From positions 1 through 64,000 of the forward strand of contig JAGXNO010000015.1 of the NCBI GenBank assembly GCA_019894975.1: DNA of 64,000 nucleotides. The letters run 5' to 3'. The notes beneath the pieces are model-generated. The model was not told where the DNA came from. It saw only the letters and a program-made list of their open reading frames with translations, and made no database searches. Made by a program: the position numbers and the translations under genes. This document shows, in pieces, positions 3,192-63,098 of the stretch. How positions within the stretch are numbered: position 1 is the first letter of the stretch; every line of letters begins with the position of its first letter. Source of the stretch: Promethearchaeota archaeon (lineage in GTDB: Archaea; Asgardarchaeota; Lokiarchaeia; Sigyniarchaeales; SOKP01).

Positions 3192-5630
3192 TTAAACTTC
3201 TTTTTCACACTTTCCGATTCCAGTTACAAAATCATTTTCATACAATTTAATAACTCTAACACCTTTTGCGGTTCTATGAGTAATTCTTATTGAATCTACA
3301 GATACTCTTATCATTTGTCCTTGTTCTGTTCCAATTAATAGATCCATCTGTTTCGCAATTTTAATGGCAATGACTTTGTCATTTTTTTCTTTATTCAAAG
3401 TTATATTTTTAACCCCTTTTGCGCCTCTCCCCGTTTTTCTATATTCTTTCACATAAGTTCTTTGGCCATATGCATTTTCCGTTAAAGTTAAGATTATCTC
3501 ATCATCTGAGACTAATAAGAAATCAATAACTTCATCACCTTCTCTTAAATGTGCTCCCTTGACACCCATCGAATTTCTTCCCAACTCTCTTAATTCAGAT
3601 TCATCGAATCTAATCGCATAACCTAGTTTTGTGGCAATGAATATATCTTGTAATTCGTTTGAAAGTCTTTTAACGCTTACTAATTCATCATCTGGTCTTA
3701 TTCTCTGAGCTCTTACTCCTGTACTTTTAAATTTTGAAAATAATCGTAATGGAGATTTCTTTATAATTCCATTTTTAGTTGCCATTATCAACATTTCTGT
3801 GGTATCAAAGTTGTTAATGGGAATCATAGAAGAGATTTTTTCACCCGGTTGTAGAGGGAGTAAATTGATTATTGGTTTACCGCGTGCAGTACGTTGTTGT
3901 AAAGATATATTATAACTTTTAATTGAATATACCCTACCTTTAGAAGTAAAGACTAAAATTGTATCATGAGTAGAACATACAAATAAATCGGTAATGAAAT
4001 CTTCTTCCCGGACAGTCATTCCTTTTTTACCACGCCCGCCTCTACCTTGGATACGATACTCCTCAACTGAGATCCTTTTAATATACTGATTTTTAGTAAA
4101 AATCACAATCGTTGGTTCATTTTTAATAAGATCTACCCTTTTAATGTCTCTAGCAGATTCTTCACCACTAATTTCTATTTTTGACCTTCTATCATCACCA
4201 TATTTTGCACTCAGATCATTTAATTCACTTTTTATAATATCTAATTGCAACTGCTCCTTAGCTAGAATTTTTTTATATTCTACGATACTTTCATTCAAAG
4301 ATTTCTCCTCATCCACCAGCTTTTGCTTTTCTAGATTAGTCAATCGAGATAATTGCATGTTTAATATTGCTTGGACTTGGATGTCACTTAAACTATAGGC
4401 TTCCATTAATTTTATTTTTGCTTCTTTTGTATCTTTCGCTTTTTTAATTATATTTATAACGTTATCAATATCATTTAAAGCAATAAGAAGCCCTTCTACT
4501 CTATGAAGTCGATCTTCAGCTTTTCTAAGATCAAATTCTATTCTCCTTCTAATAATTAACAGACGGTGAACTATATATTCTTGAATAATTTCTTTTAAAG
4601 TAAGAATTTTAGGTTGTTTTCCATTATTAATCAACACTAAGTTTATTACATTAAAACTTGTAAACAATCTAGTCCGTTTAAATAAAATGTTTTTAATTAT
4701 AACTGGTTGAGCATTTTTTGTTAAATCTATAACTATTCGCATCCCATTCCTATCAGATTCATCCCGTAAATCTCTGATGTCTTTAATAACACCATCCTTT
4801 ATTAATTTAGCAATAGATTCTATCAACAAAGATTTATTTACCAGATATGGAATTTCTGTAATAATTAGGCTAGTTTTGTCATCTTTAACTTCAGTTTCGA
4901 CATTCCCACTAATATTTACATTACCGATTCCGGTTGTGTATGCATTATATATACCATTTGTATCTGAAATAATCCCACCTGTAGGAAAATCTGGGCCTTT
5001 AATAATTTCCATAAGTTCTAGAATTGATATTTCAGGATCGTCAATTGTAGCTACAATTCCTTGGCAAATTTCATTTAAGTTATGAGGAGGCATTGAGGTA
5101 GCCATCCCTACAGCAATTCCTTTTGTTCCATTTATTAAAATATTAGGCAATTTGGCAGGTAAATAAACGGGTTCAACCTTACTATCATCAAAGTTTGGGA
5201 TAAATTCCACTGTTTCTTTATTTAAATCCTCAATTAATTCATCTGAAATGCGTGAGAGCCTGGCTTCCGTATATCTGTAAGCGGCTGGATCATCTCCATC
5301 AACTGAACCAAAATTACCTTGAGGATCAATTAGAGGATATCGTAGGGAAAAATCTTGCCCCATTCTTACAAGGGCACCATATATAGCATCTCCTGAATGA
5401 GGATGATAATTTCCTAAAACTTGCCCTACTATTTTAGCACATTTAACATGAGGAGAGCGTATATCCCATCCACTTTCTGCCATTGCAAAGATGATTCTTT
5501 TCTGAACAGGTTTAAGTCCATCTCTTACATCAGGAATTGCCCTACCAATGATGACCGACATGCTATAATCTATATAGCTGCTTGCCATCTCATCTTTTAA
5601 CAAAATTTCTTCAATCTGTTCTGATGTCAA
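3192..5630 (-). CDS. gyrA: DNA gyrase subunit A
   Basis: SYIDYSMSVIIGRAIPDVRDGLKPVQ, catalytic RYTEARL, GyrA-box QGRGGRG, C-terminal beta-pinwheel repeats. Confidence 0.97.
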   Translation of the reverse strand: MTSEQIEEILLKDEMASSYIDYSMSVIIGRAIPDVRDGLKPVQKRIIFAMAESGWDIRSPHVKCAKIVGQVLGNYHPHSGDAIYGALVRMGQDFSLRYPLIDPQGNFGSVDGDDPAAYRYTEARLSRISDELIEDLNKETVEFIPNFDDSKVEPVYLPAKLPNILINGTKGIAVGMATSMPPHNLNEICQGIVATIDDPEISILELMEIIKGPDFPTGGIISDTNGIYNAYTTGIGNVNISGNVETEVKDDKTSLIITEIPYLVNKSLLIESIAKLIKDGVIKDIRDLRDESDRNGMRIVIDLTKNAQPVIIKNILFKRTRLFTSFNVINLVLINNGKQPKILTLKEIIQEYIVHRLLIIRRRIEFDLRKAEDRLHRVEGLLIALNDIDNVINIIKKAKDTKEAKIKLMEAYSLSDIQVQAILNMQLSRLTNLEKQKLVDEEKSLNESIVEYKKILAKEQLQLDIIKSELNDLSAKYGDDRRSKIEISGEESARDIKRVDLIKNEPTIVIFTKNQYIKRISVEEYRIQGRGGRGKKGMTVREEDFITDLFVCSTHDTILVFTSKGRVYSIKSYNISLQQRTARGKPIINLLPLQPGEKISSMIPINNFDTTEMLIMATKNGIIKKSPLRLFSKFKSTGVRAQRIRPDDELVSVKRLSNELQDIFIATKLGYAIRFDESELRELGRNSMGVKGAHLREGDEVIDFLLVSDDEIILTLTENAYGQRTYVKEYRKTGRGAKGVKNITLNKEKNDKVIAIKIAKQMDLLIGTEQGQMIRVSVDSIRITHRTAKGVRVIKLYENDFVTGIGKCEKEV

Positions 5631-5678: not shown

Positions 5679-7741
5679 TTAGATATCTAACACATTAACT
5701 TCGTCAAAATGACTGATAATGAATTTTTTTCGAGCTTTCACTTCTTTACCCATGAGCTTTGTAAACATTAGATCATTTTCTAAATAGTCTTCATAAGTAA
5801 CTTTCTTTAGTTTCCTAGTATCGCGATTCATGGTGGTCACATAGAGCTCTTCTGCGTTCATTTCACCAAGGCCTTTATATCTTTGAGTTCGAATTGAACC
5901 CGTGTCCTTAAGATTATGTTTTGTTTGTAATCCTTGAAAAAAGTCTTCTTTTTCTTTATCTGTGAAGACATATTTTTGGTCTTTCTTATAACTAACTTTA
6001 TATAAGGGAGGACAGGCAATATAGAGATGTCCTGCATCTATAAGTGGACGCATATATCTAAAGAAGAATGTAAGTAGGAGTGTCTCAATGTGAAATCCGT
6101 CAATGTCAGCATCACACATAATTACTACCTTATGGTAGCGCAGTTTACTTAAATCAAAGTTTTCTTCGACTTCTTCACCTTCTTCAGTTTCACCATTGGT
6201 TCCATTTAAATCATTTTCCTCTTGGAATCCTACTCCTAGAGCTTTGATAATAGATTGGATTTCATTGTTTTGCAATATCTTGTCTAAACGGGCTTTTTCT
6301 ACGTTTAAAATCTTACCCCTAAGAGGAAGAATTGCCTGATAAGTTCTATCTCTTCCTTGTTTAGCAGAACCACCTGCTGAATTTCCTTCAACTATAAATA
6401 TTTCTGAATCTTCAGGTTTATTCGAAGAACAATCAGCAAGTTTGCCCGGCATCCTTGCACCATCTAATGCAGATTTTCTACGGATTAGAGATCTCGCTTT
6501 TTGGGCAGCTTCACGAGCTATTTTCGCATTAATAGTTTTTAAAATAATCCTTTTAGCTATTTGTGGGTGTTCTTCTAGAAATTGAGTTAACTTATCAGTA
6601 ACCATTTGACTTATTATCTGCCGAATCTCAGGGTTACCTAACTTAATTTTAGTTTGGCTTTCAAATTGAGGATCAGGAAGTTTAACCGAAATTACTGCTG
6701 AAAGTCCTTCTCGTGTATCAGTCCCACTTAATACGTGATCTTTATACTTCTTTTCCATATAATTTTCTATATAAGAATTAAAACCCCTTGTTAAGGCCGA
6801 TTTAAACCCGGTTAAATGAGTGCCTCCCTCGATAGTGTTGATTGTGTTGGCATAAGAGAGAATATTTGTATGATATCCTTGGTTGTATTGAGCAGCAACT
6901 TCACACATTATCGTAGAGCCATCTTCATCTTCAGTTGAATCGCTTATATAAATAACGTCATTATGTAAAGGCTGTTTGTCTTTATTTAAATAGCTTACAA
7001 ATTCCTTTAATCCGCCTTCATAATGAAATTCTTCTATTTCATCCTTAAATTTATCATGAAGTTCAAACCTTGCGTGTGGGTTAAGAAATGCAAGCTCTCG
7101 CATCCTAGCAGTAATAGTATGGGCACTGAATATCGGTTCATTAGGATCAAAATCAAAAATAGAATTATCTGGATAAAATTTGATTTTTGTGTATGTCTTT
7201 TCGGTTTTGATCTCTGTTGTTTCTGCATCAGTTACCTTTTTGCCTTTAGAAAATTTTTGTTTGTAGAGCAGACCATCACGACAGACCTCAACTTCCATCC
7301 ATTCAGTTAAAGCGTTCACAACTGAGAGTCCAACGCCATGTAAGCCACCAGAAATTTTATAACTTTTACTGTCAAATTTTCCTCCAGCATGTAAATGTTC
7401 CATGATTACTTCAAGCGCAGGTCTCTTAAATTCGGGATGTTCATCAATAGGGATGCCACGACCATTATCAGATACTTGAACTGTATTATCTTTATAGAGG
7501 GTTACCTTTATCTCGTCGGCATACCCTCCCATTGCTTCATCTACAGAGTTATCAAGTACCTCGAAAATAAGATGGTGAAGCCCCCTCTTGCTTTGGTCCC
7601 CTACATACATTGCGGGCCTCTTTCTTTGTCGACCTAGCGCGAATCGCGCATCTCCTTCATTCTTTATGAAGATAAGTTTACGCCGTCGAGCCCTTTTAGT
7701 ACTTGAATATCCTCTGCATCATATCCGCTTTTCTCAACCAT
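5679..7741 (-). CDS. gyrB: DNA gyrase subunit B, split: exon 1 7741-7679, exon 2 7625-5679 (669 aa if joined)
   Basis: ATG at 7741 gives MVEKSGYDAEDIQVLKGLDGV. After a 53-nt gap the frame resumes RKRPAMYVGD...EVLDNSVDE, GGLHGVG, VEGNSAGG, PLRGK, DADIDG, RYKGLGEM. The ORF track only catches 5679-7610. Confidence 0.95.
7626..7678 (-). other. 53-nt intervening sequence in gyrB, putative bulge-helix-bulge intron
   Basis: AACTTATCTTCATAAAGAATGAAGGAGATGCGCGATTCGCGCTAGGTCGACAA. Contains an in-frame TAA. Exact removal restores V-R-K-R-P. Folds into a three-way junction with BHB-like ends. Boundaries can slide by +/-1 nt. Confidence 0.75.
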
Positions 7742-8035
7742 GTTAAACCAAAATTAGTTTTTTTTAGTAAAGGTAAATCTATCAAATAAATCTCAAAATG
7801 TGTTGATAATTTAACAATTCACTATATTAATAATGGAATTTATCACTTTTAAATGTAGGTACAATTTTTCATAGTTTTTCGTCGCTCAAAATCGACATAA
7901 ATCTTTTTTTTTCTGCCCGTACTTTTAGAACTATAACATGGATACAATTAATATAGTTTTTAGTCTATAAAATCATTAGAATGAGTTTTACCGGTTCAAT
8001 TTTTCACAGTTAATTTTTTTGATTAGAATTGAGAT

Positions 8036-62300: not shown

Positions 62301-63098
62301 ATGAAGATTGGCATCCTCTCAAAAAGAAAAACTATGATGGCTGGCAAATTGAAATCATGTTTAGAGAATAAAGGATTTACTGTTTCAATTTACACATTAG
62401 AAAACTTAGTTATTGATGATTCACTTTTAAATCACGATTTTTTTATACTTAAGTCGAAAAGCTTATTTTTTCTGTATGCGGGATATTTCTTAGAAGCAAA
62501 TAATATTCCGGTAGTTCCCAAACCAGATGATTCTTTCATTCAAAAAAATCGAATACAGTCACATTTTTTAATTAAAAAATTAGGGCTGTTATGTCCTGAG
62601 ATCTATTTAGGAACACCAGATTCATTCAAAAACAATTTAAAGGAGTTTCCTTATATTTTAAAACCAATCATGGGATCAGGGAGTAGGGGAGTCCGGATAA
62701 TTAAATCAAATGAAGACTTATTAATAAAAGATAAGGGCATTCTATATATGGAAAAATTTATCTATGGTCTTCATTATAATGTTTACTTTATAGGAAATGA
62801 TATATGTACACTAATTAAACCTCCTTTATCACACGAACACGTAGACATGAAGAAAATCAAAACTCCTAACGATATTAAGAGTTTAATTGAAACATGGAAA
62901 GGTTATTTTAAAGGTGATCTCTTATTTGGGCATTTGGATATTGTAAGAGAAGAGTATAGTAATAAGTTATATGTTGTAGATCCTGGTTCCTTCCCTGAAT
63001 TTACAAACTGGAAGTGTGATGGATCACCACCTGAAAAAATCTGTAATATTATACTTGAGTATGTTAAAAAATTGAAATCCACAATAAATAATATTTAA
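62301..63098 (+). CDS. ATP-grasp (ITPK1/RimK-like) protein 4
   Basis: FPYILKPIMGSGSRGV, MEKFI, FGHLDIV, VVDPGSFPEF. Confidence 0.7.
   Translation: MKIGILSKRKTMMAGKLKSCLENKGFTVSIYTLENLVIDDSLLNHDFFILKSKSLFFLYAGYFLEANNIPVVPKPDDSFIQKNRIQSHFLIKKLGLLCPEIYLGTPDSFKNNLKEFPYILKPIMGSGSRGVRIIKSNEDLLIKDKGILYMEKFIYGLHYNVYFIGNDICTLIKPPLSHEHVDMKKIKTPNDIKSLIETWKGYFKGDLLFGHLDIVREEYSNKLYVVDPGSFPEFTNWKCDGSPPEKICNIILEYVKKLKSTINNI

What the first reader, a model, noticed from the sequence alone, without database searches (positions are those of the whole stretch)
7626..7678. Candidate bulge-helix-bulge (tRNA-endonuclease-type) intron inside the protein-coding gene gyrB
Seen in sequence: gyrB starts at 7741 (MVEKSGYDAEDIQVLKGLDGV) and hits TAA at the fifth codon of a 53-nt insert. 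Removing exactly 7626-7678 restores the conserved GyrB motif GLDGV-RKRPAMY and a 669-aa protein, and the rest of gyrB and gyrA look intact. The insert (43% GC vs ~30% background) folds on the mRNA strand into a three-way junction: P1 ACUUA/UAGGU; P2 UCUUCAU/AUGAAGG with loop AAAGA; P3 GCGCG/CGCGC. P1 stacks on a 4-bp helix GGCG(exon 1)/CGAC(intron) with one G.A mismatch. This helix is flanked by 3-nt bulges UA^A and AA^A and closed by an exon-exon C-G pair, with GGGCU/GGCCC further out. Cutting after the second nt of each bulge, as EndA does, gives exactly the in-frame junction. Established: archaeal EndA cleaves BHB motifs, and the classic mRNA example is the crenarchaeal cbf5 intron. Inference: this Asgard-like archaeon splices an essential mRNA, and the intron was gained after the bacterial-type gyrase was acquired. 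It could act as a post-transcriptional control on supercoiling.
Basis: partly seen in the sequence, partly recalled or inferred. Interest (0 to 1): 0.95.

Follow-up and report, generated by a model that had tools for sequence, protein, structure and literature searches.

The report
tRNA-type intron splitting Asgard gyrB
The only DNA gyrase B gene of this Loki-type Asgard archaeon is broken by a 53-base insert of the kind archaea cut out of tRNAs, so its messenger RNA very probably has to be cut and re-joined; in the papers I could search this is confirmed inside only one other archaeal coding sequence (cbf5).

Summary
Observation confirmed. The 53-nt insert (7626-7678, minus strand) is real: a contig from another study holds it unchanged. 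It breaks the genome's only gyrB. The same codon boundary carries inserts of 30, 31, 33, 52 or 53 nt in 23 of 113 genomes of the family (three genera). All have a stop in the exon-1 frame and keep the bulge-helix ends (central helix 98.5% paired over 17 alleles). Both exons stay under strong purifying selection (dN/dS about 0.05). Precise excision is the only single mechanism that fits all lengths; frameshifting, bypassing, re-initiation and decay fail. The genome encodes a two-subunit EndA with the specificity-loop lysine, and RtcB. No spliced RNA was seen. Corrections: the conserved motif is relaxed (one strict bulge plus a loop); the G.A mismatch is unique to this allele; gyrB is not shown to be essential; supercoiling control is unsupported, since EF-1alpha and purA here are split the same way. 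The intron is scattered over the species tree together with its flanking bases, which suggests lateral exchange. This scan noted the same intron earlier on other DNA.

The parts
7679..7741 (-). gyrB exon 1, 21 codons; includes the N-terminal arm tyrosine (E. coli Tyr5 equivalent)
   Evidence: alignment of an intact relative to E. coli GyrB; dN/dS 0.05 among carriers
7626..7678 (-). 53-nt intron with a stop at its fifth codon (7666-7664)
5679..7625 (-). gyrB exon 2, 648 codons plus stop; gene callers start it at ATG 7610 and give a truncated 643-aa protein
7681..7684 (-). 5' strand of the 4-bp central helix (exon 1, GGCG)
7678..7680 (-). 5' splice-site bulge; predicted cut between 7679 and 7678
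   Evidence: strict 3-nt bulge in the 12 genus alleles; same geometry in the short forms
7673..7677 (-). P1 (h') 5' strand; pairs with 7636-7632
   Evidence: 97.6% paired, two pairs with changes on both sides
7654..7672 (-). P2 hairpin, homologous to the core hairpin of the 30-33 nt forms; variable
   Evidence: 77% paired in a fixed register; p-distance 0.35
7637..7649 (-). P3 GC-rich hairpin, the arm found only in the 52/53-nt form; most conserved part of the interior
   Evidence: p-distance 0.13; occurs once in the genome
7628..7631 (-). 3' strand of the central helix (intron); G.A mismatch only in this allele
7625..7627 (-). 3' splice-site bulge or loop; predicted cut between 7626 and 7625
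7614..7618 (-). exon-2 strand of the outer exon-exon helix (partner 7693-7689), kept through synonymous codon choice
   Evidence: exon duplex -9.6 to -15.1 kcal/mol in carriers, -2.7 to -10.7 in 30 of 31 non-carriers; C-G/G-C exchange at wobble sites
3192..5630 (-). gyrA, intact 812 aa, directly downstream

Best explanation
The insert is a protein-spliced archaeal intron in the gyrB pre-mRNA. SHOWN (sequence and comparison): it breaks the frame, has conserved bulge-helix ends, and sits in a gene whose two exons are both selected as one protein; the genome encodes the machinery. INFERRED: the transcript folds so that four exon-1 bases pair with four bases at the intron's 3' end, with P1 inside (P3 probably stacking on it) and an exon-exon helix outside. 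The two-subunit EndA cuts after the second base of the 5' bulge and at the matching place of the 3' bulge or loop. RtcB joins Val21 to Arg22, and the 53-mer leaves, probably as a circle. It is most likely a tolerated, near-neutral genetic parasite at a conserved site, one of several in this genome. INFERRED, weaker (about 0.6): intron-bearing and intron-free versions of the 5' end of gyrB are swapped between species by recombination, which carries along some tens of flanking bases.
For: Single gyrB in the genome. Insert unchanged in another study. Same junction occupied in 12/43 genomes of the genus, 5/9 of genus g21 and 6/36 of g22, with lengths 30, 31, 33, 52, 53 nt (all three phases), each with a stop in the exon-1 frame. 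Central helix 98.5% and P1 97.6% paired; 13 cells change on both sides and 0 of 500 shuffles reach that, though relatedness inflates it. RNAalifold finds the same helix-bulge-helix unprompted. dN/dS among carriers is 0.05 in exon 1 and 0.06 in exon 2, as in non-carriers; this genome's own branch gives 0.04-0.07. The two Arg codons between the intron and the next ATG switch between AGR and CGN yet stay Arg in 12/12, so they are translated. The EndA catalytic subunit best matches A. pernix EndA (3P1Z, E 1e-34) with the Tyr/His/Lys positions and the K44-equivalent loop lysine aligned; a second EndA paralogue and an intact RtcB are present. (alpha-beta)2 EndA with that loop cleaves relaxed HBh'/BHL motifs (PMC6379350). 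Exchange: 9 changes on the rpoB tree and 11 on the exon-2 tree (no better than random) against 5 on a tree of the upstream 210 nt (1 of 1000 shuffles); sister pairs that are mostly 85-98% identical in exon 2 drop to 65-76% in its first 60 nt; the nearest local flank is a carrier for 10/12 carriers but for 1/31 non-carriers.
Against: No spliced transcript, circle or cleavage was observed. In this allele the splice-competent fold is not the predicted ground state, and it has the only mismatched central helix among the 17 long alleles. The exon-2 frame is open across this allele's insert, so this genome alone does not exclude a frameshift. Five short forms depart in the central helix or P1 (G.A at the fourth pair in G115 and G152; mismatches in P1 in three g21 alleles). 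The direction of exchange (spread or repeated loss) is not resolved, and part of the flank similarity is forced by the structure.
Confidence: 0.88

Rival explanations
1. Programmed -1 frameshift or ribosomal bypass (T4 gene 60 type, also a type II topoisomerase gene with a 50-nt gap) carries the ribosome across the insert without splicing.
For: In this allele the exon-2 frame is open through the insert. The gap size and gene type resemble T4 gene 60, and the insert is structured.
Against: 8 of 12 genus alleles have a stop in the exon-2 frame inside the insert, 7 of them directly before exon 2. Lengths of 30, 31, 33, 52 and 53 nt would need different shifts. There is no identical take-off and landing codon in 10 of 12 alleles, this one included; matched codons are part of gene 60 bypass (10.1101/2024.12.09.627546). 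The stop is five codons in, not next to the take-off codon.
Confidence: 0.04
2. No joining: translation re-initiates at Met27 (7610) and gives a 643-aa GyrB, with exon 1 unused or made as a separate peptide.
For: An in-frame ATG lies 15 nt after the insert, and databases call it so (30 of 120 hits start there).
Against: The codons between the insert and that ATG keep Arg-x-Arg-Pro-Ala through two-base synonymous switches, and exon 1 has dN/dS 0.05. The lost part is the N-terminal arm of the ATPase gate (alignment; its role in dimerisation is from my own knowledge of Brino 2000, cited in PMC4159350).
Confidence: 0.03
3. The insert inactivates gyrB (pseudogene in a lineage where gyrase is dispensable), or is an assembly artefact.
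For: gyrB was not found with this query in 11 of 54 genus genomes. This allele has the weakest predicted BHB.
Against: Identical contig in another study; 23 genomes carry an insert at the site; exon 2 is intact in all complete carriers; branch dN/dS 0.04-0.07; gyrA intact; no second gyrB.
Confidence: 0.02
4. It is spliced, and splicing is an evolved regulatory switch on gyrase and supercoiling (first reader's suggestion; an add-on to the best explanation, not an alternative to splicing).
For: P3 is more conserved than the rest of the interior (0.13 against 0.35). A competing fold is predicted in this and several other alleles, which could make splicing rate-limiting.
Against: 31 of 43 congeners lack the intron, sisters of carriers included. 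Short forms without P3 occupy the same site. Unrelated housekeeping genes of this genome are split likewise. P3 conservation is also explained by stabilising the fold.
Confidence: 0.1

Closest known systems
cbf5 pre-mRNA intron of Crenarchaeota (Watanabe 2002; Yoshinari 2006; Yokobori 2009, PMC2738675)
   Same: Short ORF-less insert in a conserved motif of a coding sequence; BHB-type ends with cuts between the second and third bulge bases; hetero-oligomeric EndA; lineage-specific absence.
   Different: Asgard host; gene of bacterial origin; three-way-junction interior; relaxed 3' site; five lengths at one site; scattered over the species tree with its flanks, whereas cbf5 is read as one gain and at least two losses; cbf5 splicing is shown by cDNA, this is not.
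Non-canonical (HBh'/BHL) archaeal tRNA introns, including the many Asgard ones (PMC6379350; bioRxiv 10.64898/2026.10.13.758758)
   Same: Same motif and enzyme type; repeated gains in Asgard lineages with unknown route of arrival.
   Different: Lies in an mRNA; the cited Asgard preprint treats tRNA genes only ('mRNA' does not occur in its text).
Haloferax volcanii HVO_1309 5' UTR BHB intron (PMC7714728)
   Same: 46-nt EndA-excised, circularised intron in an mRNA.
   Different: Outside the coding sequence, so the protein does not depend on precise re-joining.
T4 gene 60 translational bypass
   Same: About 50-nt non-coding gap in a type II topoisomerase gene with an in-frame stop.
   Different: No matched take-off and landing codons here; variable lengths; conserved BHB ends.
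Homing archaeal rRNA introns and group I introns (own knowledge)
   Same: Patchy distribution with flank changes around a conserved site resembles co-conversion.
   Different: No endonuclease ORF in the intron, and none recognised among the upstream neighbours; Rfam gives nothing significant.

Membership tests
Archaeal BHB (EndA/RtcB-spliced) intron | 4-bp central helix formed by exon 1 and the intron 3' end | tested here: met
   98.5% of cells paired in 17 alleles; 3 of 4 pairs in this allele
Archaeal BHB (EndA/RtcB-spliced) intron | 3-nt bulge and intron helix h' at the 5' site | tested here: met
   compensatory C-G/U-A in h'
Strict hBHBh' motif | Second 3-nt bulge closed by an exon-exon helix h | tested here: not met
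   closing pair in 5 of 12 alleles; a single C-G pair here
Relaxed HBh'/BHL intron | One strict bulge plus a loop, and an EndA type that cleaves it | tested here: met
   PMC6379350
Archaeal BHB (EndA/RtcB-spliced) intron | Cuts after the second bulge base restore the mature sequence | tested here: met
   true for all five lengths
Archaeal BHB (EndA/RtcB-spliced) intron | EndA and RtcB encoded by the host | tested here: met
Archaeal BHB (EndA/RtcB-spliced) intron | Spliced RNA or circular intron seen in vivo | tested here: inconclusive
   RNA-run contigs do not reach the junction; joined pattern has no match in metagenome contigs
Archaeal BHB (EndA/RtcB-spliced) intron | Cleavage by EndA in vitro | not testable with these tools
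   needs biochemistry
Translational bypass (T4 gene 60 type) | Matched take-off and landing codons, stop next to take-off | tested here: not met
Programmed frameshift | Downstream frame open from the shift site, one consistent shift | tested here: not met
Group I/II intron or other Rfam family | Ribozyme core or covariance-model match | tested here: not met
   best E 3.6; 53 nt is too short
Homing (mobile) intron | Encoded or linked homing endonuclease | tested here: inconclusive
   no ORF in the intron; upstream neighbours are folP and assorted genes, judged by clustering and eye, not by profile search; enzymes acting in trans were not searched
Homing (mobile) intron | Co-conversion of flanks and discordance with the host tree | tested here: met
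   direction of transfer unresolved

The most novel reading that the evidence does not exclude
The insert belongs to a family of ORF-less, EndA-spliced mRNA mini-introns that spread laterally between Loki-type Asgard species and genera by a homing-like conversion of a short tract. Protein-catalysed splicing of coding mRNAs would then be routine in close prokaryotic relatives of eukaryotes. The 53-nt form arose from a 30-33 nt form by gaining the P3 arm.
Probability: 0.45. Interest if true: 0.9.

Novelty: new variant of a known kind. Interest (0 to 1): 0.75.

Why it matters
In the papers searched, EndA-type splicing inside an archaeal coding sequence is confirmed for one gene, cbf5, plus one 5' UTR (PMC7714728, PMC2738675). 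A gyrB intron in Asgard archaea, with further cases in EF-1alpha and purA of the same genome, would make mRNA splicing a normal step in this lineage. It bears on how introns in coding genes were tolerated before the spliceosome, and on the roots of RtcB-dependent mRNA splicing (XBP1/HAC1 type; own knowledge). The site is a natural experiment on how archaeal introns arrive and leave, a question the 2026 Asgard tRNA preprint leaves open: one junction, five lengths, sister species with and without. In practice, annotation is affected: 30 of the 120 best database hits start at the internal Met, as this gene's own call does.

Tried and rejected
RNA evidence: runs X19 and X20 (small share of words) hold identical pieces of the 3' part of gyrB but do not reach the junction, and X17 holds mostly relatives; this is no evidence either way. 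A degenerate joined-junction pattern found nothing in metagenome contigs. Full-length database proteins with short N-termini (P0101, P0110, P0119) come from intron-free alleles with non-carrier flanks, not from recognisable spliced copies. Four blind genome-wide scans for BHB inserts were tried: one timed out and three gave no enrichment over shifted-geometry nulls, so I give no genome-wide count; only the homology-guided cases (EF-1alpha, purA) are counted as confirmed. The cdhD gene is split but I did not resolve its BHB. Single-sequence folding is uninformative. Rfam gave nothing. The P3 core has no second copy in the genome, so no source in a tRNA intron or repeat was found. Five pattern hits in GC-rich sequence (L112, L121, L142, L144, L145) are chance. 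The careful protein tree did not finish (quick tree only). Three-point branch dN/dS values are noisy for short branches and G061 is partial. A Z-DNA or supercoiling-sensor role for P3 was considered and not tested. No structure prediction was run, as it could not decide the question.

Full report
OBSERVATION. On the minus strand gyrB starts at 7741, runs 21 codons, enters a 53-nt insert at 7678 and meets TAA at its fifth codon. Removing 7626-7678 gives an open 669-aa GyrB with the motif GLDGV-RKRPAMY, which aligns with E. coli GyrB through an intact relative. The cut can slide by one base either way without changing the product. It is the only gyrB in the genome (95% complete), and gyrA follows intact. 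A contig of run X4, from a study not marked as the source, covers 6835-7957 with no difference, so this is not an assembly error. Taken alone, however, this allele does not fold better than its shuffles (z -0.83), and its BHB form is 4.1 kcal/mol above the predicted minimum because exon-1 UCGAC can pair with intron GUCGA instead.

HOST. A pattern from the intron found 13 archaeal records among GTDB genomes. One is Promethearchaeota archaeon Loki_b32, whose contig length (39,631) equals that of congener G041's contig. The host is therefore a Loki-type Asgard archaeon of that genus (inference). NCBI labels of these MAGs are inconsistent (Odin-, Thor-, Hermodarchaeota). Asgard gyrase is reported to come from group II Euryarchaeota and ultimately from bacteria (PMC9348778).

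DISTRIBUTION. In the genus, 12 of 43 genomes with gyrB carry an insert at exactly this codon boundary: 53 nt in eleven, 52 nt in one. In the rest of the family, 5 of 9 genomes of genus g21 carry 30 nt; 6 of 36 of g22 carry 31, 33 or 53 nt; 25 genomes of ten other genera carry none. None was seen in 15 loci of other families. Every insert has a stop in the exon-1 frame, the in-frame 30- and 33-mers included. The short forms share the ends and a central hairpin with the 53-mer and lack the P3 arm. The restriction to three genera supports a gain after gyrase was acquired.

STRUCTURE ACROSS ALLELES. In 17 alleles of the long form the central helix is paired in 98.5% of cells; the single failure is this allele's G.A. 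P1 is paired in 97.6%, with C-G and U-A exchanged at one position; sliding the partners drops pairing to 32-39%. These counts are inflated by relatedness, but RNAalifold recovers the helix, bulge, P1 and P3 unprompted. The pair closing the 3' bulge forms in 5 of 12 alleles; otherwise there is an internal loop closed by an outer exon-exon helix. The conserved motif is thus the relaxed HBh'/BHL type. The outer helix is kept through synonymous codon choice, with C-G/G-C exchange between a Gly and an Arg wobble base. P2 is variable (p-distance 0.35) and P3 conserved (0.13).

SELECTION. Among carriers dN/dS is 0.05 in exon 1 and 0.06 in exon 2, as in non-carriers (0.04 and 0.07). This genome's own branch gives 0.04-0.07. 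The two Arg codons between the intron and the first downstream ATG switch between AGR and CGN families and stay Arg in all 12. Exon 1 and the first codons of exon 2 are therefore translated into one protein, which argues against decay and against re-initiation at Met27.

RECODING RIVALS. Eight of 12 alleles have a stop in the exon-2 frame inside the insert, seven right at its end. The lengths cover all three phases. Identical take-off and landing codons are absent in 10 of 12, this allele included. Frameshifting and gene-60-type bypass fail as a common mechanism, although this allele alone would allow a -1 shift.

MACHINERY. The genome has two EndA paralogues and an intact RtcB. The catalytic one is closest to Aeropyrum pernix EndA (3P1Z, E 1e-34), with the catalytic Tyr, His and Lys positions and the lysine matching K44 of the Crenarchaea-specific loop aligned. 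The other lacks the catalytic Tyr and His and looks structural. This enzyme type cleaves relaxed motifs (PMC6379350).

MECHANISM. Shown: broken frame, conserved splice-type ends, joint selection on both exons, enzymes present. Inferred: EndA cuts at 7679/7678 and 7626/7625, RtcB joins the exons, and the intron leaves, probably as a circle (0.88). Splicing of this allele may be slow because of the mismatch and the competing fold (speculative). Not shown: any spliced RNA.

HISTORY. The intron needs 9 changes on an rpoB tree and 11 on the exon-2 tree, no fewer than random labels, but only 5 on a tree of the 210 nt upstream that excludes the structural bases (1 of 1000 shuffles). Sister pairs that differ in the intron (G061/G048, G041/G051, G016/G010, G005/G008) are mostly 85-98% identical along exon 2 but 65-76% in its first 60 nt, with the differences packed into about 20-35 bases on each side. 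The nearest local flank is another carrier for 10 of 12 carriers and for 1 of 31 non-carriers. The 53-nt form also occurs in a second genus whose other carriers have short forms. This fits exchange of a short tract by recombination better than clean vertical descent with precise loss (about 0.6). The direction is unresolved, part of the flank likeness is structurally forced, and no linked endonuclease was recognised.

CONTEXT IN THE GENOME. Following leads from earlier notes of this scan, I confirmed a 30-nt insert with two in-frame stops and BHB ends in EF-1alpha and a 32-nt one in the purA motif; removing each restores a conserved motif. cdhD is split. My blind scans had no power. The gyrB intron is thus one of several, which argues against a dedicated control of supercoiling. 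gyrB was not found with this query in 11 of 54 congeners, so 'essential' is unproven.

COMPARISON AND VERDICT. It works like the crenarchaeal cbf5 intron and meets every sequence-level criterion of a relaxed archaeal BHB intron; the RNA-level criteria are untested. My literature searches found no report of such introns in Asgard coding sequences. The library lacks most subscription journals, and Yokobori 2009 mentions unconfirmed predictions in other archaeal genes. The scan itself has noted this 53-nt intron, and 30- and 33-nt versions, on other DNA; those notes are not independent support. Verdict: real, a new variant of a known kind, interest 0.75.

Noticed in passing
L130 (G000:C107:21215-21244, minus): 30-nt insert with two in-frame TAA and BHB ends in EF-1alpha; its loop AATTC is the same as in the short gyrB introns; removal restores the DAPGH motif region.
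   Followed up: yes
L137 (G000:C86, about 62901-62932, plus): 32-nt BHB insert inside the Asp codon of the purA WGDEGKGK motif.
   Followed up: yes
L139/L140 (G000:C88:31050-31087, plus): cdhD is split by a short frame-breaking gap; BHB not resolved by my script.
   Followed up: partly
G000:C22:42270-42299 (+), C101:40055-40085 (+), C120:110770-110799 (-), C120:56315-56348 (-), C164:15343-15374 (-), C164:24143-24173 (+), C86:44836-44867 (-): Hairpin inserts of 30-34 nt with BHB geometry whose removal joins two ORFs into plausible protein; not checked by homology, and the scan as a whole was not enriched over nulls.
   Followed up: no
window 7590-7604 (minus) and relatives: The residues just after MY[IV]G are hypervariable between close relatives (DQ, ST, DT, DR, SR), carriers or not, as if the segment were often exchanged.
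   Followed up: partly
L185 (G149) and L173 (G100): Intron-free gyrB alleles with carrier-like junction codons; G149's 24 junction bases equal the joined form of G106. Candidate precise losses or pre-insertion alleles, and a caution for reading joined contigs as spliced.
   Followed up: no
protein hits P0001-P0120: 30 of 120 best GyrB hits start at the internal Met, as carriers' gene calls do; P0100 and P0115 start at an ATG inside a 31-nt intron (L125, L126).
   Followed up: partly
genus survey: gyrB not found with this query in 11 of 54 congeners, seven of them 92-98% complete; gyrase may be dispensable in the genus.
   Followed up: no
L068 (G000:C48:320-1171): A second, partial RtcB-family match near a contig end besides the intact one on C90.
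   Followed up: no
window 3192-5630 (minus): gyrA appears to start at TTG and has a slightly non-canonical GyrA box (QGRGGRG).
   Followed up: no
L055-L059 and other carrier loci: The gene upstream of gyrB is folP in most genomes, but different cargo genes are often found between folP and gyrB, in carriers and non-carriers alike.
   Followed up: partly
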